A stretch of DNA of 64,000 nucleotides, from the NCBI GenBank assembly GCA_041659065.1, contig JBAZYY010000002.1, positions 24,091-88,090 of the forward strand. The letters are read 5' to 3'. Within the stretch, counting starts at the first letter, position 1; the number at the start of each line of letters is the position of its first letter. The translations under genes and the position numbers were made by a program. Origin of the DNA: Parcubacteria group bacterium. Lineage in GTDB: Bacteria > Patescibacteriota > Minisyncoccia > Moranbacterales > UBA11712. A model generated the notes under the pieces. That model made no database searches, was not told where the DNA came from, and saw nothing but the letters and a program-made list of their open reading frames with translations. This document shows, in pieces, positions 35,070 to 46,679 of this stretch.

Positions 35070-35759
35070 TTATATCCCCAGTACGAGCCTGAAAAATGAA
35101 AGTTCAATAAACCGAATAATCGTAAATATCGGACCGGATAGAATTATAACCAAGGGTATTATGAAAATTAAGCCAAATTGTTCAAGATACAGCTTGCGTT
35201 CTTCGCTGATCGGTAGAATAGCGAATAGAAGTTTCGATCCATCCAGAGGCGGAATGGGCACCAAGTTGAAGAAAGCCAGTAGGATATTGACGTAGATTAT
35301 CATAATAAACAGGATCGCCACGCCGCTCAGGCCAGATCCGAGCAATCCCTGGCCCGTAAACAGATTATTGAGCAACTTGATACTATCCGAGATAGGCACT
35401 AAGCCACTTATGATAAAAATTTTCAAAAAAATACCAAAAACAATTGCTATCACGATATTAGAAATCGGGCCAGCCGCTCCGACTACCGCCGGACCATACT
35501 TCTGATTTTTAAGATTGTATGGGTTATAGGGAACTGGTTTTGCGGAGGCAAAAAAGAACGCTCCGCCGGAAAGCACCCAGAGAAGGACTGGCATCAAAAA
35601 AGACCCCCAGAGATCGAGATGCTTGATGGGGTTAAGCGTTAGTCGGCCCGCGTATTTAGCCGTTGGGTCTCCCAACCAAAAAGCCGCGAGACCGTGAGAC
35701 ACCTCATGGACAACAGCCGACATCACTAAAATTATCAAAAGCAGTACAAAATCAGGCAT
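35070..35759 (-). CDS. Site-2 protease (peptidase M50) family membrane metalloprotease
   Basis: HEVSH zinc motif in a TM helix, downstream NLVPIPPLDG motif. Confidence 0.75.
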   Translation of the reverse strand: MPDFVLLLIILVMSAVVHEVSHGLAAFWLGDPTAKYAGRLTLNPIKHLDLWGSFLMPVLLWVLSGGAFFFASAKPVPYNPYNLKNQKYGPAVVGAAGPISNIVIAIVFGIFLKIFIISGLVPISDSIKLLNNLFTGQGLLGSGLSGVAILFIMIIYVNILLAFFNLVPIPPLDGSKLLFAILPISEERKLYLEQFGLIFIIPLVIILSGPIFTIIRFIELSFFRLVLGI

Positions 35760-35934: not shown

Positions 35935-36108
35935 ATGTCACGAGTCTGCCAAATTTGCGGCCGCGGACCAAAATCCTCCCAAAGCCGCTCCCACTCCAAT
36001 ATCGCCACCAAAAGAACGATGGCCATCAATCTTCAAACCAAAAAAACCGGCGGAAAGAATCTGAAGATCTGTACCAAGTGCCTCAAGACCGCCGCCAAAG
36101 AAAAATAG
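35935..36108 (+). CDS. rpmB: 50S ribosomal protein L28
   Basis: MSRVCQICGRGPKS…RSHSNIATKRT…NLQ matches the L28 consensus; 57 aa (the track ORF starts 7 codons earlier). Confidence 0.8.
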   Translation: MSRVCQICGRGPKSSQSRSHSNIATKRTMAINLQTKKTGGKNLKICTKCLKTAAKEK

Positions 36109-36135
36109 CTCCGAAAGGAGCTATTTCTTGTTCTC
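36103..36135 (+). terminator. Intrinsic terminator after rpmB
   Basis: Hairpin ATAGCTCC-GAAA-GGAGCTAT (contains the stop codon) then TTCTTGTTCTCC. Confidence 0.5.
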
Positions 36136-36409: not shown

Positions 36410-36943
36410 TTACTGTTGCTGTACGGCAATCACTGATGCTGTCATTTCGTCATTGCTGATTACTACCTTATCCGAGATAATCCTGGCTACATCATCCTTT
36501 TGAATCTCGGCAAGATTCTTGGTGGGAAATAGCGTCTTACTGTTGAAATTGACCTTGACATCCTTCATCTTTTTTTCAAAAGCGCTAAACGGCATCGCCT
36601 TGCCTGGTTCAAAACCAGCGGATTCTTTCGGCCGCGTAAAATCGGGAATTTCAACTTGCGCGACGATATAGCCGTCTCCGATTTCAGAAATCCTGCCCAT
36701 GAAATCATTGTCCAGTCCCTTATCTTGGTCTTCGGCGCGGATAGTGGCATTGTCCGGCCTCGTATTTGCGCCAGCCATCGGCTGGCTGGCTGCAATCGGC
36801 ACACTCAAAACTCTTGTTCGATTGAAAATGATTACCAAGAAGACGATGATAATTACGAATAAAAAACCATACGCAGCTATCACAATTTTTAATATTTTTT
36901 CGTTCATTTTATTTTTAATTAGCTTATGACTGTTTAGGTGCAA
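36410..36943 (-). CDS. Membrane-anchored exported protein, paralog of the C-terminal half of 37518..38333
   Basis: One N-terminal TM helix; ISEIGDGYIVAQVEIPDF compared with IKEIGNNYFVVEAQWIEPS in the upstream paralog. Confidence 0.5.
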   Translation of the reverse strand: MHLNSHKLIKNKMNEKILKIVIAAYGFLFVIIIVFLVIIFNRTRVLSVPIAASQPMAGANTRPDNATIRAEDQDKGLDNDFMGRISEIGDGYIVAQVEIPDFTRPKESAGFEPGKAMPFSAFEKKMKDVKVNFNSKTLFPTKNLAEIQKDDVARIISDKVVISNDEMTASVIAVQQQ

Positions 36944-37428
36944 AGCCCGGGGTTAATTTCAGGTGTTCTGGTACAATAATAAGATCCTGTTCCACCAGCA
37001 GAGCACACATAGTAGCACGTCGTACAAGAACTTGTATCGGGGTCTGAGGCCTCCTGCCCACAGCTCAATACGCGACCGCTAACATTGCACTGACAAAGAG
37101 GTTCTGCAATTGTCGTTGTCGTAGTCGTAGTCGTACTTCCACTTGGCCACTCTGTCTTGCACACTCCCCGGATACAAACTTGGTCGGCATTGATTGTTCC
37201 CGCTCCCTTGTTGCCGCCGGTTGTCGAACTGCCAATCAGCATCCCGCCGTTGATGTTCAAATTTCCCGCTTTCGTCTGCGCCGTCCCGCTCGTATTGATC
37301 GGCGCGCCGAGATTTCCTCCCGGAGGATCCGAAGCGGGTTCGGTCCAAGCCCGGACGAACTGAAGCGCTAAACCCAGAGCGATGCCAACCGCAGCGATTG
37401 AGAGCCAGTAGCTAATTCTATTTTTCAT
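36934..37428 (-). CDS. Secreted Cys-rich protein (Sec signal peptide with AxA site), paralog of 38352..38975
   Basis: Signal peptide …LQFVRA|WTEP; conserved mature N-terminus WTEPxxxPPGGNLGAPINT; poly-Thr; 10+ Cys. Confidence 0.55.
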   Translation of the reverse strand: MKNRISYWLSIAAVGIALGLALQFVRAWTEPASDPPGGNLGAPINTSGTAQTKAGNLNINGGMLIGSSTTGGNKGAGTINADQVCIRGVCKTEWPSGSTTTTTTTTIAEPLCQCNVSGRVLSCGQEASDPDTSSCTTCYYVCSAGGTGSYYCTRTPEINPGLCT

Positions 37429-37517
37429 TTATTTGTTTTATTAAAATTTTTATAGTTAGTTATATCTAAAAGTCACTATGCAATATTTGTCTGAATCTCT
37501 CCTAACTTTAAATCAAC

Positions 37518-38333
37518 TTAAAGGGGTCCCTCAATTTTTGTCGCCGTAAACTCCGCAAGAGAAAAGACGGGCGCATTGGAATACGCATCGATATTATCAC
37601 CAACCCTAAGGTCGTTTTTTCCACTTTTTGAGAAAACAGTTTTGCTATCGATAAGCACTTTGTATGTTTTTGATATTTTAGGAGCTGTTGCCGGATCAAC
37701 ATTTTGTGGATCGCCAGCTTTGGATGGCTCTATCCATTGTGCCTCAACAACAAAGTAATTGTTGCCAATTTCTTTTATGGCTCCGCCTATATATTTTACA
37801 CTATTCGAAAAGTCGGCGCTCGGAATAAAATTAGCATTTAATCCTGGATTAGGAATAACCCAAACTTTTTTCGCAGTCAGTTTTTCGTCTCTATAAATTA
37901 GGTTATCAGTAAAAACGTGAACATTGTCGCCAATTTTGATATTTTCCCATTTTAATGGAAATTCAGTATCAGCAGTAATCGCTATCGCAAGCTTCTTTTT
38001 TATTTTAGGAAAAGAGTCTGCTTGTTTGAGAGCAGCGTCTGACAAACCAGAAAGTTTGGGAAAATTTACCATATCAGCTTCAACTATCATTGAGCCTCGG
38101 TCTTTTGAGACAACTGATCCCTTCAGCTCTTTCGTGTTTTCCTTGATTGTCTTCTGAACGGCCTCTAATAAATACGGGTCATTAACGGCTGCTTGCTGAT
38201 TTTTACTACCAGCTTTGACCAAATTATCAACCTTGCCATTTAGATTCATTATCGTTTTTTGCTGATACGCGAATACCACTGCGATTAGAATAAGGGTGAC
38301 GACTATTAGACTGTATTTTGTTTTATTTTCCAT
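37518..38333 (-). CDS. Membrane-anchored exported protein
   Basis: N-terminal TM helix; C-terminal domain homologous to 36410..36943. Confidence 0.5.
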   Translation of the reverse strand: MENKTKYSLIVVTLILIAVVFAYQQKTIMNLNGKVDNLVKAGSKNQQAAVNDPYLLEAVQKTIKENTKELKGSVVSKDRGSMIVEADMVNFPKLSGLSDAALKQADSFPKIKKKLAIAITADTEFPLKWENIKIGDNVHVFTDNLIYRDEKLTAKKVWVIPNPGLNANFIPSADFSNSVKYIGGAIKEIGNNYFVVEAQWIEPSKAGDPQNVDPATAPKISKTYKVLIDSKTVFSKSGKNDLRVGDNIDAYSNAPVFSLAEFTATKIEGPL

Positions 38334-38351
38334 AAATAGATATTAAATTTA

Positions 38352-38975
38352 TTAGCTTGGCGTACAACCAATGAATCTTACGGTCGAGCTGCAATACCCC
38401 GTTGTCGTACTGGTGCAACCGACACACTCTGCAGGACCTTCGCACCAACTGCCATGCCACCATCCTGGGGGACAAGACACTGTGGTATAACAACAAGGGT
38501 CATAATAGGAAAGAACGGTATAGGTCACTACCTCTGTTGCTGGATCAATATTGTCAAATAAGTGCGAACCGCTGGTTACGCCTGAGCAGGATTCGGCTGA
38601 AGTTTCGGTATATTTTAAATATGACTTCCAGCCTAAAGGACAAGAAGCTCCTGGAAATTTACACAATGTTATGCCGCCCACCATCGTAGGTACACCACCC
38701 GCAAGGGTGCATGCAGGAAAATTCACAAGATCGCCAAGGCACTTCTTGTCTCCTGTACCCTTTGTATCAACGCAGATATCTGCTTTATTTGAAGCTGTTC
38801 CAACTTTTGTTTGTATACCTGCTCCTGTATTGATCGGAGCGCCAAGGTTGCCGCCCGGAGGAGCTTCAGTTGGTTCGGTCCAGGCTCGCGCAAATTGGAG
38901 CAGAAGACCGAGTGCAATTCCAATAATGGCAACTTTCAGCCAGAAAAACTGCTTCTTTTGTTTTTTTTGTTTCAT
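38352..38975 (-). CDS. Secreted Cys-rich protein, paralog of 36934..37428
   Basis: …LQFARA|WTEPTEAPPGGNLGAPINTG; 16 Cys including the CC pair in YYDPCCYTT. Confidence 0.55.
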   Translation of the reverse strand: MKQKKQKKQFFWLKVAIIGIALGLLLQFARAWTEPTEAPPGGNLGAPINTGAGIQTKVGTASNKADICVDTKGTGDKKCLGDLVNFPACTLAGGVPTMVGGITLCKFPGASCPLGWKSYLKYTETSAESCSGVTSGSHLFDNIDPATEVVTYTVLSYYDPCCYTTVSCPPGWWHGSWCEGPAECVGCTSTTTGYCSSTVRFIGCTPS

Positions 38976-39028
38976 AGGTAGTAATTTAAATTATATATTT
39001 TCTCTGAAATAGCTCTCACAGCCCTTAT

Positions 39029-40339
39029 CTATTGAGTTGGATTAGTTTCCACCCACCCCGGAGCTTTGACATAGACCTTGGTTGAGCAAGAATCGTCTCC
39101 CGCGACAGCATCTGAGGTTGCCGAACCATAGTTTGATGAACTGTCCGCCGTCACTTTGCATTGCGTTCCGTCTTTGGATACGTCGGTAATATTTGTTGAT
39201 CCCCCTACTTTTTTTATGCATGTTTCAAGAGCACAACCAGCCTCTCCGGTCACAGACACGTCGTAGCTCGCAGTGCTCCCAGACCTAACCTCAAAGCTAT
39301 CCGGACAGCTGACCTCACAGTCCAAGGTTTTGATAAGATTTACGTTTGCCGTGGCCGCGCCACAATCACCCGTAACATTCACAGGCACGGTGTCATTAGA
39401 GGAGAAGTCGATCCCCTTCACATAGACTGTGCATTCGCCCCCGCTAATCGCACAAGAAGTACTATCCGCGGCTCCCGAACAGGTTGAGTTAGAAGAGATG
39501 TCTATTTTAGCTGAACCATTGTCGCTGAAATTAACAACCTGTCCATCTGTTGAATCCTCCGTTGTTACAACTAGTGGGCGGCAATTTTGGATATGATCCA
39601 ATGTCGGCCCAGAAGCGCTATGAATCGCACAGACATTTTCAATCTTTGCCTGACCAAAATCAATCCAACCTAGCTCACCAGCTATAGCACTGTTGGTTCC
39701 TGACCAACCATATCCAGACAGAGTGTTATCATTATTAATGGTGATTCCATAAGGAGTTCCGTTCGCATTTCCTTCAAGACTTATCCATCCTTGCCACCCC
39801 CCTGAATTTGGCGTAGCTTTCTCAAATTCTTTTTTTATTTCTAAAAATCTCGCCCAGCCTTTTATCCGATTGCCAGTTCGCCATGCTTTGCAAGGGTTAC
39901 TCGGGCACCCACCTAGTTCTGAAGAATTAAAACTTATATACCCCAAACCTGGACTCCAAGCGTAACCAGACAACTCACCTCCGCTCGTTGGACTAGGAAT
40001 GTTAACCCTATAGAGTTTTACTGCCCCCGAAGTTGGACATCCTGCAGGCGCTCCTTCTGAAGATCCTTCATATGTTCCATTTTCGTTAACATCACAATTT
40101 TTGCTATTCATGCTCACCCAGTATACACCAGTTTCGTTGCCATTTATACTGCCGTCACTCGATTCCTCAGTTCCTCCCCACAGCCAGCCAGTTATAATGC
40201 CCGCTGCTTGGACTTTAACAATACTGGCCACAGCAGCAATGGAAAAAACCAGAATCAGTGAAAGCATAATCCTGCGGCTGCGCGATATGATGGCTTTTTT
40301 CATTTTTCTTTTTTTATATTTTATGCGAGAGAAGACCAA
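39029..40339 (-). CDS. Large secreted protein with aromatic GW/GWIS repeats and Cys-rich C-terminal region
   Basis: Signal peptide; repeats GWLWGG, GYAWSPGLGYISFNS, GWQGWISLEG, GYGWSG…LGWIDFG; Ser/Thr/Cys-rich tail. Confidence 0.5.
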   Translation of the reverse strand: MVFSRIKYKKRKMKKAIISRSRRIMLSLILVFSIAAVASIVKVQAAGIITGWLWGGTEESSDGSINGNETGVYWVSMNSKNCDVNENGTYEGSSEGAPAGCPTSGAVKLYRVNIPSPTSGGELSGYAWSPGLGYISFNSSELGGCPSNPCKAWRTGNRIKGWARFLEIKKEFEKATPNSGGWQGWISLEGNANGTPYGITINNDNTLSGYGWSGTNSAIAGELGWIDFGQAKIENVCAIHSASGPTLDHIQNCRPLVVTTEDSTDGQVVNFSDNGSAKIDISSNSTCSGAADSTSCAISGGECTVYVKGIDFSSNDTVPVNVTGDCGAATANVNLIKTLDCEVSCPDSFEVRSGSTASYDVSVTGEAGCALETCIKKVGGSTNITDVSKDGTQCKVTADSSSNYGSATSDAVAGDDSCSTKVYVKAPGWVETNPTQ

Positions 40340-40499
40340 TAATTTATTTGATTATAGCATAATTTTGATATTGCGACAAAATACCTTCTTATCCACAGGC
40401 AGTATTCATGCCGCATATAAAACGGTTTGAATAAAATGCACAGCTATTTCAAAAAGTAGAAAAATAAGATACAATGTTAATGATAATTTTCGATGTCCA

Positions 40500-40590
40500 A
40501 TTCACAATTTTCAATCAATGATCAATTTTTAAAATTTTTAAACATTGAAAATTTATTGTAAATTGAAAATTAGTAATTGAAAATTTGAGA
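40500..40590. repeat. AT-rich palindromic intergenic element (family D, CAATTTTCAAT / ATTGAAAATTG)
   Basis: Same heptamer arms as 5040-5180. Confidence 0.55.
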
Positions 40591-41099
40591 TGAAAATTGC
40601 CATGAAAAAAATACTTCTATCAATCATTTTAAGCTTGTTTGCGGCTGTACCGATGGCTCATGCCATCTGTCCCGTCTGCACCGTAGCTGTGGGAGCGGGG
40701 CTGGGACTGGCTGAATATCTTGGAATTGATGATTCCATCTCGGGACTATGGATCGGAGCGCTGATCGTCTCAATGTCGCTTTGGACCATAAATTGGTTAA
40801 GCCAGAGAGAAATAAAATTTAAAGGCAGAAAAATCCTTATTTTTATTGCCTATTATCTGATTGTGGTCGGACCGCTTTTTTGGAGAGGTATCATCGGCCA
40901 TCCCTTTAATAAGCTCTGCGGGATTGATAAATTATTATTTGGAATTATACTCGGCAGCGTCCTTTTCGCAGCCGGAGCCATCTTCCATGTTTACGTGAGA
41001 GAACGAAACGGAAGCAAATCATATTTTAAGGGGCAGAAAATAGTTTTCGCCATCACGCCACTCATAGTCGCAAGCGTAATTTTATATTTTACTTGCTAA
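40590..41099 (+). CDS. Hypothetical membrane protein
   Basis: 4-5 TM helices; N-terminal CPVC. Confidence 0.45.
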   Translation: MKIAMKKILLSIILSLFAAVPMAHAICPVCTVAVGAGLGLAEYLGIDDSISGLWIGALIVSMSLWTINWLSQREIKFKGRKILIFIAYYLIVVGPLFWRGIIGHPFNKLCGIDKLLFGIILGSVLFAAGAIFHVYVRERNGSKSYFKGQKIVFAITPLIVASVILYFTC

Positions 41100-41153: not shown

Positions 41154-41756
41154 ATGCCTGATCAAAACAAGCTCCAAAAAATCAACGAACTCATTGAGAA
41201 AGTGGATGAGATGAAAAAGCAAGACAAGATGGATCTCTCATCCGACCAGGATCTCTCGATCGCTATCATGAACCTCGTTTCGATCGAAGAACATTTCTTT
41301 TTCACGGGCGCCAAAACCGGAAAGCCGGAATACTATGGCCTCTTGCAGGAAGTTCGCAAGATGCGCGGTGACCTGCTCCGCAAAATTATCAAGGAATACG
41401 AAGGAGAAGTATGGTGCATCTCAAAACATCTTCTTGCTGCTTCAATGCGTCTGATGGAAGTTGGAACCAAGCAGCAAGGCATGGGAAACAAAAAAGAAGC
41501 GCAGGAACTGTTTGAAAAATCATACGACCTTTATTCCCTTTTCTGGGGACTTAATATGAAATTGATCAATACGAACGACATTAAAAAGATTGACGAAACA
41601 TCCATCAATGTCCACGATCAGGGAAAAGTGTCTTCCCAAAATATTTCGAGTTCTGCCGAAAAAACTGATAATAGCAGTTCAAAAAATGTGAGCAAAAGCT
41701 TCATGGGAAAACTCGGCGAACTCGTCCGAAAAGCCGTGGACTGCTGCCTCGAGTAA
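41154..41756 (+). CDS. Hypothetical protein
   Basis: 200-aa ORF; no motif recognised. Confidence 0.4.
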   Translation: MPDQNKLQKINELIEKVDEMKKQDKMDLSSDQDLSIAIMNLVSIEEHFFFTGAKTGKPEYYGLLQEVRKMRGDLLRKIIKEYEGEVWCISKHLLAASMRLMEVGTKQQGMGNKKEAQELFEKSYDLYSLFWGLNMKLINTNDIKKIDETSINVHDQGKVSSQNISSSAEKTDNSSSKNVSKSFMGKLGELVRKAVDCCLE

Positions 41757-42606: not shown

Positions 42607-43353
42607 TTAATCATCACTGTCCCATCTCATTTTTGCTTTTTGCATCAAACCTTTATTTTGCCAAGGCCGGATTTCCCTCGCCCAGAAAACATTCTCTTGT
42701 TCTTTTTCACCGATTACTTTTATCTCTTCTCCGGGCACTATTCTGATCGGTTCGTATTCAAGCGTGTCATCGTCTTCCCGCACCTGCCACAGGACTCCGT
42801 GGAAATCTTTTAATTCGAACACTTTGGGGTCAACAATTTTAATTATTTTTCCCCCCAGTAAACCATTTCCCGGCTGGTCCCAGATATCCGTGCGGTTATG
42901 GCAGCAGGTGAGGCTTTCATAAATTGGAATACTCGAAGCCACAACATCCTCCACTTCCTGGCCCGCGCCCAAAGTATTCAGAAAAGTCCCTAAAATTATA
43001 CTCCCAATAACGCTTAGGCCGAGAATCACATACGCTTCATGGCGATATCCCTCTTTAGTGTGCTTAAAGTTGTAATACGCCACGCTGATGAACAGAATCA
43101 GTAAAATTATCCAGATATACGGAATAGAGATTAAAATGTGTCCGGCCAGACTTCGATGCAGATATTGGTACAAGTCCCAATCATTTTCGAATAAAATATG
43201 GAGCGAGACGCAAAAAGCAACCGCGCCAATTATGAGCGAAATCAGGAACAGCAGCCAGACAAAATAGTCCTTGAGTAGAAATCTCCAGCGCGGCTTTGGA
43301 GCTATTTTTTCTTCCTTGATTTTTTCAAGCACTTTTTTCCCAAGTTCACTCAT
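42607..43353 (-). CDS. Membrane protein, putative anti-sigma factor (by position)
   Basis: Cytoplasmic N-terminus, 4 TM helices; directly downstream of the ECF sigma gene. Confidence 0.35.
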   Translation of the reverse strand: MSELGKKVLEKIKEEKIAPKPRWRFLLKDYFVWLLFLISLIIGAVAFCVSLHILFENDWDLYQYLHRSLAGHILISIPYIWIILLILFISVAYYNFKHTKEGYRHEAYVILGLSVIGSIILGTFLNTLGAGQEVEDVVASSIPIYESLTCCHNRTDIWDQPGNGLLGGKIIKIVDPKVFELKDFHGVLWQVREDDDTLEYEPIRIVPGEEIKVIGEKEQENVFWAREIRPWQNKGLMQKAKMRWDSDD

Positions 43354-43361
43354 ATATTTAG

Positions 43362-43946
43362 TTAGTAAGTTAAGTCTTTGCCAGCGCCAATTTTCTTAAA
43401 TTGCTTTTTCGCGCGATTAATCAAAGTGGCCACGGTGCCCAGAGGCTTGTGCAATATATCCGAGATTTCCTTATAATCCTTCCCTTCGAGAAACTTAAGC
43501 ACCAGGACTTCCCTGTATTTATCGTCCAGTTTATCCAATATTTCTCTCACCTCTTCTCCGGTAAACTTTCTTTCGGTGTCGCTGGCCAAATCTTCATCAG
43601 TCGAAATGAACTTTAGAAAGTCTTCATCGGCCTCGAATTTTAGTACTTTAGGCCGAGCTGATGTCTTTCGCCAGTGGCTGATAACCTGGTTATGGGCAAT
43701 GCGATAAACCCAGGAAGAGAACTTTAGGCTTTGGTCGAAATCGTTAAGATTGCGATAGACTTTAACAAAAATATCCTGCAGAAGATCTTCCGCGTCTTCG
43801 CGAGTCACGGCCGAAATGCGCATGATATAGCGCATTAGTTTTTCTTCATAACGGTCGACAAGGCACGCAAAAAAATCCTGATTCTTGAGAGCTAGGGCGA
43901 CCAATTCTTCATCAGTTTTATCGGGACAACTGTTTTTGTCGAGCAT
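43362..43946 (-). CDS. ECF-type RNA polymerase sigma factor (sigma-70 family)
   Basis: Region 2 (DIFVKVYRNL…WVYRIAHNQVISHWRK) and region 4 HTH (YKEISDILHKPLGTVATLINRAKKQ). Confidence 0.8.
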   Translation of the reverse strand: MLDKNSCPDKTDEELVALALKNQDFFACLVDRYEEKLMRYIMRISAVTREDAEDLLQDIFVKVYRNLNDFDQSLKFSSWVYRIAHNQVISHWRKTSARPKVLKFEADEDFLKFISTDEDLASDTERKFTGEEVREILDKLDDKYREVLVLKFLEGKDYKEISDILHKPLGTVATLINRAKKQFKKIGAGKDLTY

Positions 43947-43958
43947 TAATTAGTAGTT

Positions 43959-44537
43959 TTATTGATGAGCAGGCGGCCTTACACTGCCGTAGCTTGCTAC
44001 TGCCTGCTCCTTTTGAGCTATTTTGCTGTAAGCATCGCGAAACACTTTACCAAACCATGCGGATAATTTTGCCGGATCGAGCTTTTCTAATCCTTGAGTG
44101 TCCTTACTTCTCCTTGTAAACGCGGCAACCGCAACTTCCCTTAGATCCTCGAGTTTTCCTGCCTTTCCTACCTGATTAAACTTATCAAATCCTTCTTTTA
44201 GTGATCCTCTGAGATGCTCCAGACTTTTAGGATCCTCCCGTACCTGCGAAGATATTGCCTTAAAATCAAGAATTTGAAGCGCAGCGTCAAAAGAAATCGT
44301 CAATGAAGCTGATTCAGCTGCCTTTATCCTCTCTGGTGTTATAGCCTCGCCTTCTTTGACAGGTTTAAGTTCAGCGATAGCATCACTGGGGAATTTCCCC
44401 GGGTCGATAAACTCCGCCAGATTCCGCTCTTTCCTATAGCTAGCATTCCGAACAATTCCACGGCCTAATCCCGCTTCTTTTTCATATTGAGCCTTAAGCA
44501 ATTCAGCTGAATTTTCTGGTTCTTGCGTATACTCCAT
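43959..44537 (-). CDS. Hypothetical protein
   Basis: 192 aa; no motif recognised. Confidence 0.4.
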   Translation of the reverse strand: MEYTQEPENSAELLKAQYEKEAGLGRGIVRNASYRKERNLAEFIDPGKFPSDAIAELKPVKEGEAITPERIKAAESASLTISFDAALQILDFKAISSQVREDPKSLEHLRGSLKEGFDKFNQVGKAGKLEDLREVAVAAFTRRSKDTQGLEKLDPAKLSAWFGKVFRDAYSKIAQKEQAVASYGSVRPPAHQ

Positions 44538-44612
44538 AAAGACGAAGATTAAATTATTCTTTACTCACGGATTCGTATGCTAGCATAAAATTCTTAATTT
44601 GCAAAGCCTCCA

Positions 44613-46679
44613 TTACAATCCCAGTTCCCCTTCTCTCTCCCAATTGTTTTCGTTCAATACGATCATTTGATTGTCCCCAATGGCATAAAGAAAATCATCC
44701 ATATAGATAGCCCTTTTAGCTTGAATTTCCGCTACTGTTTTTTCCAGCTTCAGATTATCACCCGCATAGGAGAATATATACCCGCCTTTTGACCCCGGCA
44801 GGAAAAAGATTTGATGCTTGGAATCCAGTAGAAATGCGTGATGGGTTTGCGCCACTTCCGAATAATATTCATCCAAATTATATTTTGAAATTTCCCGCGG
44901 ATTTTGCGGCGAGCTCACGTCAAAAAGGCTGATTTTGACTTGATTATTCTCTTCGCCGATTCCCAGAACTTTGTCTTTCGTTATCGGATGCAAATATGAC
45001 GAATAGCCCGGTATTTTCAGCTCTCCTGCTTTTTTCGGCTCCAGGGGATTTGAAAGATCCAGCACATAAAATGGATCCGTTTGTTTGAATGTTACCAGAT
45101 ACCCTTTGTCTTCGACGAATCTTGCGGCGTAAATTTTCTCCTGCTCTCCAAGATCCGTGATTGAGCTCACGGTCCGGAGTTCCTTATCGAGGATATAGAC
45201 ATCATTCGCGCTGTCACGCGCGCCACCGAAGCCAAACCCCCACCAGCCCGAACCAACCGTAGTGGCAATTCGCAAATAATTTTGATACTCATCCAGAGAA
45301 AATTGATTAAGCGGTTTTCCAGGAACGGCGCCGCTTGCAGTGACGCTGAGGTCTGAAACTGAAATTTTTACAATCCCTGTCCGTTCCAGATCCCTTTTAT
45401 GCTCTTTGAAATAATTTTCCATGCGGTTTCGCATTTCATTTTCCAGTTTCATGCGGTCGTCGGAACTCAGGAAATTCTGGTACTTTTGCAGTATATCCCC
45501 GTACTCCGTCATTTTCGCGTTAGCGCCTATATCATAACCTTCGAGTTTTCTTATCTTTTCCGTCACCGAGTCGGGAACGAGATCGCTATTTTTTCCAAAA
45601 AAACCAATTGTGAATTTGATAAAGTCCCCCGGATAATAATAAGTGGCATAGATAGAATCCGGCGACATGTAGATGACCGAGTCGCTGGACGAACCGACAA
45701 AGGTTGCTGTTTCCTTAGTGTCTCCAGTTGAAATATCCATTTTTGTCACTGTGTAGGTTGTATCTGACGATATGGGCGCCACTGGATGGTTGATTTCCTG
45801 ACAGCTGATGGAAAAGTTTTTCCCATTCACTAAATATGGTTCGAATGGGCAGGGATGGTCGGAATTAATGGTACTTTTTGTCACCAGGAAGATCCTGTCC
45901 CCATAGAGGCGCGCTGCCTCTACTTGGGTATTGTTTTTTAGTTCAATGCTCCACTTTTCTTTTGGGTCCTTTGGGTCGGAGACATCATAGCCCGTTATCT
46001 TACCTTGGCTGCCGCCGAAGTAATTGCCATCTGGCAGCACAACCAAAATATTATTTTTCAAGAGCATGTTTCCGCTTTGACGGATTTTGCTATCGATTGC
46101 CAGATCGGTTGGCGGATATGCTTTAATAGCTTTTATACCCCCGGTCTGGCCAAGCGGCCATAGTTCCTTCGACTCATCGGATCTTCCCGCAGTATCATCA
46201 AGGGGCATGACAGTTGGCTGGGCAACTGAAAAATAGATATCCTTCCCGTCTGTCTTAACAACATCCGGCTCATCAATTCCCGCAACTTGCACATTTGTTT
46301 CCGAAACCCTCTCGGGTCCGCTGCCGAGGCCTGCCGTAGTTGGGGGTATCGCAGCTTTTGAGCTGTCGGCACTTTGTTCCATCACGTTTGCCATTCCACT
46401 TCTCATTCCTCCTCCAAGCATCTGAGCGCCTCCGGAAAAACTCGATATTTCTTTACTTTTTTCCAGATATTTCTTGAAATCCGCCTCTGAACTGAAATGC
46501 TTTATGGTATTCAAATCCGTTGGGGCTTGATATATCTCTCCGGATTCCGTCTGGCTGGATTGGCTATTCGAGTTATCGAGATACCGAGAATTATTAAATC
46601 CAATGATAACAAGTGCGGCAATCAAGCTGACCGCCAAAATCACCGCCAGAGCGTAGCTAAGTTTTATTTCTTTTGACAT
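44613..46679 (-). CDS. Large membrane-anchored extracytoplasmic protein (beta-propeller-like repeats likely)
   Basis: N-terminal TM anchor; 688 aa rich in Gly/Tyr/Asp repeat segments; no enzymatic motif identified. Confidence 0.4.
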   Translation of the reverse strand: MSKEIKLSYALAVILAVSLIAALVIIGFNNSRYLDNSNSQSSQTESGEIYQAPTDLNTIKHFSSEADFKKYLEKSKEISSFSGGAQMLGGGMRSGMANVMEQSADSSKAAIPPTTAGLGSGPERVSETNVQVAGIDEPDVVKTDGKDIYFSVAQPTVMPLDDTAGRSDESKELWPLGQTGGIKAIKAYPPTDLAIDSKIRQSGNMLLKNNILVVLPDGNYFGGSQGKITGYDVSDPKDPKEKWSIELKNNTQVEAARLYGDRIFLVTKSTINSDHPCPFEPYLVNGKNFSISCQEINHPVAPISSDTTYTVTKMDISTGDTKETATFVGSSSDSVIYMSPDSIYATYYYPGDFIKFTIGFFGKNSDLVPDSVTEKIRKLEGYDIGANAKMTEYGDILQKYQNFLSSDDRMKLENEMRNRMENYFKEHKRDLERTGIVKISVSDLSVTASGAVPGKPLNQFSLDEYQNYLRIATTVGSGWWGFGFGGARDSANDVYILDKELRTVSSITDLGEQEKIYAARFVEDKGYLVTFKQTDPFYVLDLSNPLEPKKAGELKIPGYSSYLHPITKDKVLGIGEENNQVKISLFDVSSPQNPREISKYNLDEYYSEVAQTHHAFLLDSKHQIFFLPGSKGGYIFSYAGDNLKLEKTVAEIQAKRAIYMDDFLYAIGDNQMIVLNENNWEREGELGL

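What the first reader, a model, noticed from the sequence alone, without database searches (positions are those of the whole stretch)
36410..40339. Five-gene operon of exported proteins containing a tandemly duplicated two-gene module
- The minus-strand genes 39029..40339, 38352..38975, 37518..38333, 36934..37428 and 36410..36943 are separated by 18-90 nt and all begin with signal or anchor sequences.
- The two Cys-rich proteins are paralogs with an identical signal-peptidase site and conserved mature N-terminus (…LQF(A/V)RA|WTEPxxxPPGGNLGAPINT).
- Each is followed by a membrane-anchored protein, and those two are also paralogous (EIGDGYIVAQVEIPDF versus EIGNNYFVVEAQWIEPS).
- The conserved mature N-terminus looks like a sorting, processing or partner-recognition motif.
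- The module could be a surface-attachment or host-interaction system.
Basis: seen in the sequence. Interest (0 to 1): 0.6.

Follow-up and report, generated by a model that had tools for sequence, protein, structure and literature searches.

The report
Modular surface-protein operon of a Parcubacterium
The five genes are real and belong to an undescribed but very widespread gene cluster of ultrasmall (CPR/Patescibacteria) bacteria, which most likely displays interchangeable cysteine-rich binding heads on the cell surface through a shared N-terminal docking peptide.

Summary
Five co-directional genes of a Parcubacteria MAG encode one large exported protein (A) and two pairs, each made of a Cys-rich exported protein (B) followed by a membrane-anchored protein (C).

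- **B paralogy:** the two B proteins share only about 78 N-terminal residues: the signal peptide plus WTEP..PPGGNLGAPINT..QTK.G.
- **C paralogy:** the two C proteins share a DUF5666-like beta-barrel, present twice in the larger one.
- **Not a recent duplication:** each pair has its own orthologous pair in a different relative.
- **B N-terminal module:** it heads at least 7,025 protein clusters, always at the N-terminus. It sits on unrelated heads, some of phage-tail-fibre type. It has no Pfam, NCBIfam, PDB, phage or literature match.
- **A architecture:** a Trp-rich domain without a detected match, two invasin/intimin-like Ig domains, and a family-specific C-terminal tail W-x-E-[TV]-x-P.
- **Linkage:** in 74 species-level loci seeded on B, an A gene lies beside B in 29 and a C-like gene in 13.

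Best reading, which is inferred and not shown: a surface display or adhesion system in which B heads dock through their conserved mature N-terminus. Function is untested.

The parts
40351..40379 (-). Promoter-like site upstream of gene A (TTGTCG, 17-nt spacer, TATAAT with an upstream TG).
   Evidence: Consensus scan, 10 of 12 matches. This is a pattern match only, not evidence of function.
39029..40303 (-). Gene A, 424 aa from the ATG at 40303 (the ORF extends to a TTG at 40339). It is an exported scaffold-like protein with a signal peptide, a Trp/Gly-rich 'GW' domain, two Ig-like domains and a C-terminal tail.
   Evidence: ORF. Sixty homologs. AlphaFold2 model with mean pLDDT 86.6.
39638..40201 (-). 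Domain of gene A: the conserved beta-rich GW domain, residues about 35-222. Motifs: GWLWGG, GYAWS..G(W/Y)ISFN, GWAR, GGWQGWI, GYGWS..LGWIDF.
39059..39628 (-). Domains of gene A: two tandem bacterial Ig-like domains, residues about 226-415. They are Cys-containing and variable between homologs.
39038..39055 (-). Extreme C-terminal tail of gene A, W-V-E-T-N-P, followed by TQ and the stop codon. Family consensus: W-x-E-[TV]-x-P at the C-terminus.
   Evidence: Present at the C-terminus of most A homologs. Of 885 complete ORFs of 150 aa or more in the fetched loci, 29 carry it. Twenty-three of those were hit by the A profile and five more are the A-like 355/357-aa proteins. The tail is unstructured in the model, with pLDDT falling to 55.
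38352..38975 (-). Gene B (207 aa): signal peptide, conserved N-terminal module, then a Cys-rich beta domain with 14 Cys and a hypervariable C-terminal third.
   Evidence: Ninety-one homologs, about 20 of them full length. Alignment A1. AF2 gives a confident beta core at residues about 85-160 and 187-207. No PDB or BFVD fold match.
38799..38882 (-). Conserved mature N-terminal module of B207, residues 32-59: WTEPTEAPPGGNLGAPINTGAGIQTKVG.
   Evidence: pLDDT is below 50, so it is predicted unstructured on its own.
37518..38333 (-). Gene C (271 aa): bitopic membrane protein with an N-terminal anchor and two DUF5666-like beta-barrel repeats, at about 37854-38129 and 37530-37796. No Cys.
   Evidence: DUF5666 at E 0.0092 for this protein. 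Five of 9 family members hit it, best E 9.9e-7. Internal repeat E 2e-6. Ten homologs.
36934..37428 (-). Gene B' (164 aa): the same signal peptide and module (module at 37264-37347), then a short stalk, a C-x-G-x-C..WP hairpin, a poly-Thr linker and a small 8-Cys knob.
   Evidence: It is 77% identical over its full length to the B gene of L009.
36410..36907 (-). Gene C' (165 aa from the ATG at 36907; the ORF extends to a TTG at 36943): bitopic membrane protein with one DUF5666-like domain.
   Evidence: It is 75% identical to the C gene that follows B in L009. It is recovered by the C-family profile.

Best explanation
The operon encodes a Sec-exported, cell-envelope protein set that works together as a modular surface display or adhesion system found mainly in Patescibacteria.

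Proposed mechanism:
1. Signal peptidase I cuts B after (A/V)RA. This exposes an invariant Trp-led, Pro/Gly-rich peptide of about 30 residues (WTEP..PPGGN.GAPINT..Q.K.G).
2. That peptide is a docking or anchoring element, and it holds a variable, disulfide-rich head at the cell surface.
3. The constant partners receive it. These are the membrane-tethered DUF5666-like barrels of C, which is translated right after each B, and/or the aromatic-rich GW domain of A.
4. A provides an invasin/intimin-like Ig stalk, and its own conserved C-terminal tail (W-x-E-T-x-P) is a second docking peptide.
5. Different heads (here a 176-residue beta domain and a small knob on a Thr-rich linker) would give different binding specificities, presumably for host cells or particles.

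What is shown: gene order, paralogy, domain architecture, distribution and linkage. What is inferred: cleavage, docking, partner identity and adhesion.
For: - **Export signals and cysteines.** All five products carry export or anchor signals. A and both B proteins have even Cys counts (16, 14, 10) and both C proteins have none, as expected for extracytoplasmic disulfide-bonded heads.
- **The B module is a conserved N-terminal element on unrelated heads.** It is found in 7,025 clusters and is always N-terminal in the listed hits. Heads on relatives include Peptidase_S74, Phage Tail Collar, Gly_rich_2, Shufflon_N, Resistin and TSP1 and DUF1566. These are typical receptor-binding or fibre modules.
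- **The module looks like a linear motif.** It is predicted unstructured alone, as is the tail of A.
- **Linkage.** An A gene lies within 600 nt on the same strand in 29 of 74 species-level B-seeded loci. A C-like gene lies within 300 nt in 13, and either one in 32. These are lower bounds because many loci are cut by contig ends.
- **C stays constant while the head changes.** C is the same family next to B proteins with quite different heads, for example in L016, L034, L035, L048 and L051. If C binds B, it most simply binds the constant module.
- **Tight coupling of B and C.** In the window and in the long pairs of L001 and L003 (called genes), the B-to-C gap is 13-26 nt. C-to-next-gene gaps are 31-89 nt.
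- **Pairs are inherited as units.** B164 and C165 are 77% and 75% identical to one pair in L009. B207 and C271 find their best matches (56% and 47%) in one pair in L001.
- **A, B and C evolve faster than their neighbours.** A, B and C are 29-60% identical across relatives, apart from the 77%/75% pair in L009. The flanking genes are 57-93% identical.
Against: - No experiment or complex prediction supports any contact between A, B and C.
- C-like genes were detected next to B in only 13 of 74 loci. Some of those detections rest on an iterated profile that could drift on the transmembrane segment.
- In many other loci a different, about 100-117-aa bitopic protein sits between A and B.
- About half of the B-seeded loci show neither A nor C.
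- A few B-module proteins occur in MAGs labelled as non-CPR, without A.
- The folds of the B207 head and of the GW domain match nothing known. No binding function can therefore be read from structure.
- Linkage within the Moranbacteria-like clade cannot be separated from plain synteny.
- The resemblance between W-T-E-P in B and W-x-E-T-x-P in A may be chance.
Confidence: 0.45

Rival explanations
1. The conserved B N-terminus is only an export or maturation signal, for example a recognition site for a dedicated peptidase or modifying enzyme. A, B and C are independent secreted or envelope proteins that are merely syntenic. There is no A-B-C complex.
For: The module is short, Pro/Gly-rich and unstructured. 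About half of the B-seeded loci lack A and C. B-module proteins exist without A in MAGs labelled Hyphomicrobiales or Gammaproteobacteria. In the Moranbacteria-like subfamily even the signal-peptide core is conserved (WL.V..IGI.LG..LQF.RA), which could point to a dedicated export factor.
Against: A lies directly beside B on the same strand in 29 of 74 loci across many CPR lineages with otherwise different contexts, for example L006 against the window. B-C pairs are inherited as units with 13-26-nt spacing. No candidate modifying enzyme is consistently linked. The M50 peptidase is syntenic only within one clade.
Confidence: 0.2
2. Each B-C pair is a secreted Cys-rich toxin or antimicrobial peptide followed by its membrane-anchored immunity protein. 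The layout is that of a polymorphic toxin cassette: a constant N-terminus, a variable C-terminus and a small downstream gene.
For: The gene grammar fits, with a conserved leader, a hypervariable Cys-rich C-terminus, a tightly coupled small membrane protein downstream and several divergent cassettes in tandem. B and C diverge at similar rates.
Against: C is one family (DUF5666-like) whatever the B head, whereas immunity proteins normally change fold with the toxin. No toxin domain was found by Pfam, NCBIfam or PHROGs. Heads on relatives are fibre or adhesin modules rather than toxins. The leader is a Sec type with an AxA site, not a double-glycine leader, and no C39 ABC exporter is nearby. Most B proteins elsewhere have no C.
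Confidence: 0.1
3. B proteins, possibly with A as tip or base, polymerise into a Sec-dependent pilus-like fibre. The exposed N-terminal peptide of one subunit inserts into the next by donor-strand exchange, and C acts as a membrane assembly platform or chaperone.
Against: The B heads are unrelated to one another, so no common acceptor groove is evident. No usher, sortase or pilin motif is present. The matches to fimbrial chaperones cover about one Ig domain and rank among generic Ig-fold hits. Many B relatives carry trimeric tail-fibre chaperone domains, which suggests self-contained fibres.
Confidence: 0.08
4. The cluster is a prophage or phage-derived tail-fibre region rather than a cellular surface system.
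For: Relatives of B carry Peptidase_S74, Phage Tail Collar, Shufflon_N and tail-fibre PHROG matches.
Against: The window proteins have no PHROG hit. The module has no tblastn match in 50,697 phage records and no confirmed hit in 2.9 million IMG/VR contigs. All five products have Sec signals or anchors. The locus lies among housekeeping genes (L28, M50, rpsL, rpsG, fusA) in conserved synteny. GC content is unremarkable.
Confidence: 0.03

Closest known systems
Invasin/intimin-family adhesins (bacterial Ig-like Big_1 stalks)
   Different: A has no outer-membrane beta-barrel anchor, no LysM domain and no C-type-lectin-like tip. It starts instead with a GW-rich domain that has no detected match and ends in a W-x-E-T-x-P tail. 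The window protein itself has no Pfam hit.
Phage tail fibres and R64 PilV shufflon adhesins (constant N-terminus, exchangeable receptor-binding C-terminus)
   Same: The design logic is the same: a conserved N-terminal attachment element with highly variable C-terminal heads. Some proteins with the B module carry Peptidase_S74, Collar, Gly_rich_2 or Shufflon_N domains.
   Different: The B proteins are cellular and Sec-exported. The module is absent from phage collections. The two window B proteins have no tail-fibre domain, and no shufflon or invertase is present.
Cohesin-dockerin display (cellulosome), and SLH- or choline-binding-repeat anchoring of Gram-positive surface proteins
   Same: This is a functional analogy only. 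Many different proteins share one short conserved docking or anchoring module, and a scaffold protein is encoded beside them.
   Different: No dockerin, cohesin, SLH or CW_binding repeats were detected. The module here is an unstructured N-terminal peptide of about 30 residues, not a folded domain. Docking itself is unproven.
DUF5666 (PF18914) proteins
   Same: The C proteins match this small beta-barrel domain. Five of 9 family members hit it, best E 9.9e-7. Weak side hits to OB-fold families (RuvA_N, tRNA_anti-like) agree with a barrel.
   Different: The window proteins score below Pfam's gathering cut-off (16.7 against 27 bits). DUF5666 has no known function, so the assignment adds architecture and not mechanism.
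Cysteine-rich extracellular proteins reported in CPR genomes (Peribacteria, PMC4736985)
   Same: These are exported, Cys-rich, strain-variable proteins proposed to act in attachment.
   Different: Those proteins are large (about 1,650 aa on average), and no shared N-terminal module or A-B-C gene cluster was described there.

Membership tests
Type IV pilins / pseudopilins | Class III signal peptide: a short basic leader ending in Gly, cleaved before F/M-x-x-x-E, followed by a hydrophobic alpha-1 helix that is retained in the mature protein. | tested here: not met
   In the B N-termini the conserved motif comes after the hydrophobic segment, at an AxA-type site (LQF(A/V)RA|WTEP). There is no G|F...E5 motif. 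No pilin model hit in Pfam or NCBIfam.
Sortase-anchored surface proteins / Gram-positive pili | C-terminal LPXTG-like motif followed by a hydrophobic segment and a basic tail. | tested here: not met
   A ends ...GWVETNPTQ and then the stop codon, with no hydrophobic segment. B and C have no such signal.
Invasin/intimin adhesins | Tandem Big_1-type Ig-like domains. | tested here: met
Invasin/intimin adhesins | N-terminal outer-membrane beta-barrel (with or without LysM) and a C-terminal lectin-like receptor-binding domain. | tested here: not met
   The N-terminal half of A is the GW domain, with no Pfam or PDB match. The protein ends after the second Ig domain with a short tail.
Phage tail fibre proteins | Recognisable tail-fibre domains or PHROG membership, and a phage structural gene context. 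| tested here: not met
   None of the five window proteins has a PHROG hit. No phage or IMG/VR match to the module. The flanks are housekeeping genes.
DUF5666 (PF18914) | Match to the Pfam model at or above its gathering score. | tested here: inconclusive
   C271 scores 16.7 bits against a cut-off of 27. Five of 9 homologs match at E<=0.1, best 9.9e-7. C177 is linked only through C271 and the family profile.
Bacteriocin or polymorphic-toxin plus immunity pairs | An identifiable toxin domain or double-glycine leader with a dedicated exporter, and an immunity protein specific to the toxin type. | tested here: not met
   No toxin domain. The leader is a Sec AxA type. C is one family next to unrelated B heads. 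Toxicity itself cannot be tested with these tools.
Cohesin-dockerin systems | Dockerin (duplicated Ca-binding loop-helix) on the cargo and cohesin modules on the scaffold. | tested here: not met
   No Pfam hits to either at E<=1. Only the display logic is analogous.

The most novel reading that the evidence does not exclude
A, B and C are the parts of a plug-in surface display apparatus found mainly in Patescibacteria. A Trp-led docking peptide of about 30 residues, present on more than 7,000 protein clusters, and the related C-terminal tail of A (W-x-E-[TV]-x-P) are both captured by conserved receptors: the DUF5666 barrels of C and/or the aromatic GW domain of A. A cell could then mount many interchangeable binding heads on one scaffold. 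This would be the main host-recognition device of Parcubacteria-type episymbionts. In function it would parallel cohesin-dockerin display or tail-fibre-to-baseplate attachment, but it would be built from unrelated parts.
Probability: 0.22. Interest if true: 0.8.

Novelty: new variant of a known kind. Interest (0 to 1): 0.55.

Why it matters
- **Open question addressed.** How Parcubacteria and most other CPR bacteria recognise and hold on to hosts is unknown. Experimental work so far centres on type IV pili and a few adhesins of Saccharibacteria (PMC11665869).
- **A large uncatalogued family.** The B N-terminal module marks thousands of exported proteins. No Pfam, NCBIfam, PDB entry or paper in the searched library describes it.
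- **A concrete partner.** Its genomic partner A has a conserved Trp-rich domain, an Ig stalk and a conserved terminal peptide.
- **Payoff if docking is real.** It would give a simple sequence rule for listing the surface 'heads' of any CPR genome. It would also give defined peptides and domains for binding assays, nanobody targeting and cryo-ET labelling.
- **Payoff if docking is not real.** The module is still a useful new family definition for annotating CPR secretomes.

Tried and rejected
Searches that found nothing useful:
- PDB sequence searches with profiles of B, C, A and the B module gave nothing meaningful.
- PHROGs on the five window proteins gave no hit.
- NCBIfam on the window proteins and on 44 diverse B proteins gave no relevant model.
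- tblastn of a consensus module against phage genomes, and an IMG/VR scan, gave nothing.
- Literature searches for the motifs, for CPR surface or Cys-rich proteins, for DUF5666 and for a conserved N-terminal signal gave only general statements on Cys-rich CPR exoproteins.

Readings considered and dropped:
- Type IV pilin, because the motif order is wrong.
- Sortase substrate, because there is no LPXTG or C-terminal anchor.
- N-glycosylation sequon in APINT(G/S), because it is not conserved as N-x-S/T.
- Recent gene conversion between the two B 5' ends, because DNA identity is only 73%.
- A functional link to the neighbouring M50 peptidase, the CPVC membrane protein or the ECF sigma/anti-sigma pair. 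These are syntenic only within the Moranbacteria-like clade and are absent from L006.

Full report
**1. The observation**

The window comes from a Parcubacteria-group MAG. NCBI locus tags WC858_02040 to 02055 match the ORFs exactly. Five minus-strand ORFs lie at the stated coordinates.
- Spacing is 53, 18 and 89 nt. The listed TTG start of the last gene overlaps its neighbour by 10 nt.
- The ATG at 36907 (MNEKILK) gives a 26-nt gap instead. It is the start used by a 75%-identical ortholog.
- Gene A more likely starts at the ATG at 40303, giving 424 aa as annotated by NCBI. A promoter-like TTGTCG-17-TATAAT lies at 40379-40351.
- A and both B proteins start with a basic N-region, a hydrophobic core and an AxA-type site: VQA|A, ARA|W and VRA|W.
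- Both C proteins start with an uncleaved-looking membrane anchor.
- The predicted mature chains hold 16, 14 and 10 cysteines in A, B207 and B164, and none in the C proteins.

**2. Paralogy**

- B207 and B164 align at 49% identity over 78 residues (E 5e-24). That stretch is the signal peptide plus WTEP..PPGGNLGAPINT..QTK.G. Nothing aligns after it.
- The matching DNA is only 73% identical over 97 nt. The similarity is therefore held at protein level and is not recent gene conversion.
- C271 and C177 align at 28% over 90 residues (E 5e-5).
- C271 contains the domain twice (E 2e-6). The family matches Pfam DUF5666: 5 of 9 members hit it, best E 9.9e-7, but the window protein scores below the gathering cut-off.
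- The 'two-gene module present twice' is real. The two copies are nevertheless different subtypes.

**3. Relatives and gene order**

I name the three families A (large exported protein), B (Cys-rich, with the N-terminal module) and C (anchored, DUF5666-like).
- Window: A424-B207-C271-B164-C165 | L28 | M50 peptidase | S12 S7 EF-G.
- GCA_041659685.1 (L001): A430-B161-C156-B180-C167 | L28 | M50 | B224-C276-A357-B243-C278-B218-C273 | S12.
- A third relative (L003): A405 ... M50 | B214-C284-A355-B238-C274 | S12.
- In the window and in the long pairs of L001 and L003, B-to-C gaps are 13-26 nt. Gaps from C to the next gene are 31-89 nt.
- The pairs are inherited as units. B164 and C165 are 77% and 75% identical to one pair in a Moraniibacteriota MAG (L009), while the A gene beside them there is only 38% identical. 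B207 and C271 have their best matches (56% and 47%) in one pair of L001.
- Flanking genes are far better conserved, at 57-93% identity. A, B and C form a fast-evolving, cassette-like island within conserved synteny.

**4. The B N-terminal module**

- A 63-position profile of the module was scored against 1.84 billion cluster representatives. It finds 7,025 proteins at E<=0.001 and 1,374 at E<=1e-10. In every listed hit the module is at the N-terminus, and the proteins range from 73 to 820 aa.
- A scan of one genome per GTDB species gave 74 loci. Nearly all are Patescibacteria: Moran-, Paceibacterota, Kaiser-, Falkow-, Yonath-, Wolfe-, Nomura-, Taylor- and Portnoybacteria. A few lie in MAGs labelled Hyphomicrobiales, Gammaproteobacteria or Ignavibacteriaceae.
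- The general consensus is a signal peptide followed by (A)WT(E/G/A)PT..PP.GNV(G/A)APIN(T/V)...Q.K.G.L.
- What follows the module is highly diverse: small Cys-rich knobs, Gly-rich domains, and long fibres with repeated C-x-G-x-C..W(P) hairpins.
- Where Pfam recognises anything, it finds Peptidase_S74 (tail-fibre chaperone), Phage Tail Collar, Gly_rich_2, Shufflon_N, Peptidase_G2, Resistin and TSP1, and DUF1566.
- The module itself has no Pfam, NCBIfam, PDB, PHROG, phage-genome or IMG/VR match. The literature library holds no description of it.
- In the AlphaFold2 model of B207 the module (residues 32-58) has pLDDT below 50. A beta core (residues about 85-160 and 187-207) is confident. That core matches nothing in PDB or BFVD.

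**5. Protein A**

- Sixty homologs share the N-terminal half. It carries repeated Trp/Gly motifs: GWLWGG, GYAWS..GWISFN, GWAR, GGW.GWI and GYAWSDELGWIDF.
- None of the listed Pfam hits of A homologs is a candidate for this domain, and there is no PDB sequence match.
- The AlphaFold2 model is good, with mean pLDDT 86.6. It shows a signal helix, a beta-rich domain (about 35-222), two Ig-like domains (about 226-415) and an unstructured tail.
- Nearly all A homologs end in W-x-E-[TV]-x-P: GWIETNP in the Moranbacteria-like clade and WKEVAP or WREVAP elsewhere.
- Among 885 complete ORFs of 150 aa or more in all fetched loci, 29 carry this tail. Twenty-three were hit by the A profile, five are the A-like 355/357-aa proteins, and one is a 1,117-aa protein.

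**6. Linkage beyond the clade**

Profiles of A, B and C were run on all ORFs of the 74 B-seeded loci.
- An A gene lies within 600 nt on the same strand as B in 29 loci. It is upstream of B in 20 of these.
- An iterated C profile finds a C-like gene within 300 nt in 13 loci.
- One or the other is present in 32 loci.
- Many loci are truncated by contig ends, so these counts are lower bounds.
- Where A and B are 300-450 nt apart, the gap usually holds a bitopic membrane protein of about 100-117 aa with a charged, repetitive tail.
- The recurring unit across Patescibacteria is therefore A, plus a small anchored protein (C-like or the short type), plus one or more B genes.
- Context otherwise differs between lineages, for example L006. 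The A-B link is therefore not just clade synteny.

**7. Mechanism (inferred)**

The constant elements are the B module, the GW domain of A, the tail of A and the C barrels. The variable elements are the B heads and the Ig region of A.
- C is the same family next to B proteins with unrelated heads. If C touches B, it most simply recognises the constant module. This argues against a toxin-immunity reading.
- The module and the tail of A both look like exposed linear motifs. They are unstructured in the models, Trp-led and Pro-containing.
- The GW domain is unusually rich in invariant aromatic residues. Such surfaces commonly bind Pro-rich peptides or glycans. This last point rests on general knowledge and was not tested here.
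- I therefore favour a display or adhesion system. In it B heads are docked near the membrane or wall through their mature N-terminus, with C as tether and A as Ig-stalk scaffold.
- My confidence is about 0.45 in the general statement and much lower for any specific contact.

Rivals, in order of weight:
- The module is only an export or maturation signal and the proteins act independently (0.2).
- B and C are toxin-immunity cassettes (0.1).
- The proteins form a donor-strand pilus (0.08).
- The region is phage-derived (0.03).

**8. Comparison and novelty**

- The Ig stalk of A resembles invasin and intimin but lacks their defining anchor and tip.
- The B family follows the design logic of tail fibres and PilV shufflon adhesins. 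It is nevertheless cellular, Sec-exported and absent from phage collections.
- The docking idea is analogous to cohesin-dockerin, but no such domains are present.
- C is DUF5666-like.
- General reports of Cys-rich, variable exoproteins in CPR genomes exist (PMC4736985). They do not describe this module or cluster.
- I rate the finding a new variant of a known kind: bacterial modular surface or adhesin systems. It is built on two families that current databases do not hold.
- Interest is 0.55. It is a concrete and widely distributed candidate for CPR host recognition, but the case is entirely computational.

Noticed in passing
window 40590-41099 (+) and 41154-41756 (+): A gene pair is transcribed divergently from A. 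The first is a 169-aa multi-pass membrane protein with a signal peptide followed directly by a CPVC motif and with a C-terminal Cys. The second is a 200-aa protein ending in CCLE. Both are 61-87% identical in eight related loci, and neither has a Pfam hit. A thiol-disulfide role for the Cys-rich neighbours is conceivable but untested, and the link may be plain synteny.
   Followed up: partly
window 35070-35759 (-): A short (229 aa) M50-family peptidase without a PDZ domain lies between the operon (plus L28) and rpsL. In L001 and L003 the 'long' B-C pairs lie on the other side of this gene. It is syntenic only in the Moranbacteria-like clade.
   Followed up: partly
window 42607-46679 (-): A 688-aa Beta_propel (PF09826) protein, an ECF-type sigma factor (43362-43946) and a 248-aa membrane protein that could be its anti-sigma factor lie upstream of the locus. 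The same order is seen in L005 and in a JGI contig. They are a possible regulator of the surface operon. This was not tested.
   Followed up: no
L006 8328-8678; L014 5645-5971; L017 5628-5981; L022 5681-5986; L045 5676-5972 and others: In many CPR loci a bitopic membrane protein of about 100-117 aa, with a charged and internally repetitive tail, sits between the A and B genes. It seems to take the place that C has in the window.
   Followed up: partly
protein P0185 (119 aa): A small protein carries both the B-type N-terminal module and the A-type C-terminal tail (...GRAGWIETNP). The two motifs can therefore occur on one chain.
   Followed up: no
L058, L063, L073, L076, L077, L059, L060: Proteins with the mature part of the module (AWTGPT..AP.GNVAAPINVG..DQVK) occur in MAGs labelled Hyphomicrobiales, Roseiarcus, Ignavibacteriaceae or Gammaproteobacteria. 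No A or C gene is nearby. Several end in Gly_rich_2-type domains. They may reflect horizontal transfer, binning contamination or a wider distribution.
   Followed up: no
window 37100-37130 region of B164; L041, L029, L061 B proteins: A short motif C-x-G-x-C-x-(T/S)-x-W-P (for example VCIRGVCKTEWPSG) recurs in many B-family proteins, sometimes several times along long fibre-like members. It looks like a disulfide-clamped hairpin unit of the stalk.
   Followed up: no
window 36103-36126 (+): A 10-bp stem terminator-like hairpin follows the plus-strand L28 gene (35914-36108). It lies between L28 and the end of the minus-strand operon and could act in both directions.
   Followed up: no
L003 2700-4208 and 13493-14176: In one relative an HTH protein and a 202-aa protein are inserted between A405 and M50. 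A Y1 (IS200/IS605-type) transposase lies downstream of EF-G. Both hint at local rearrangement around this island.
   Followed up: no
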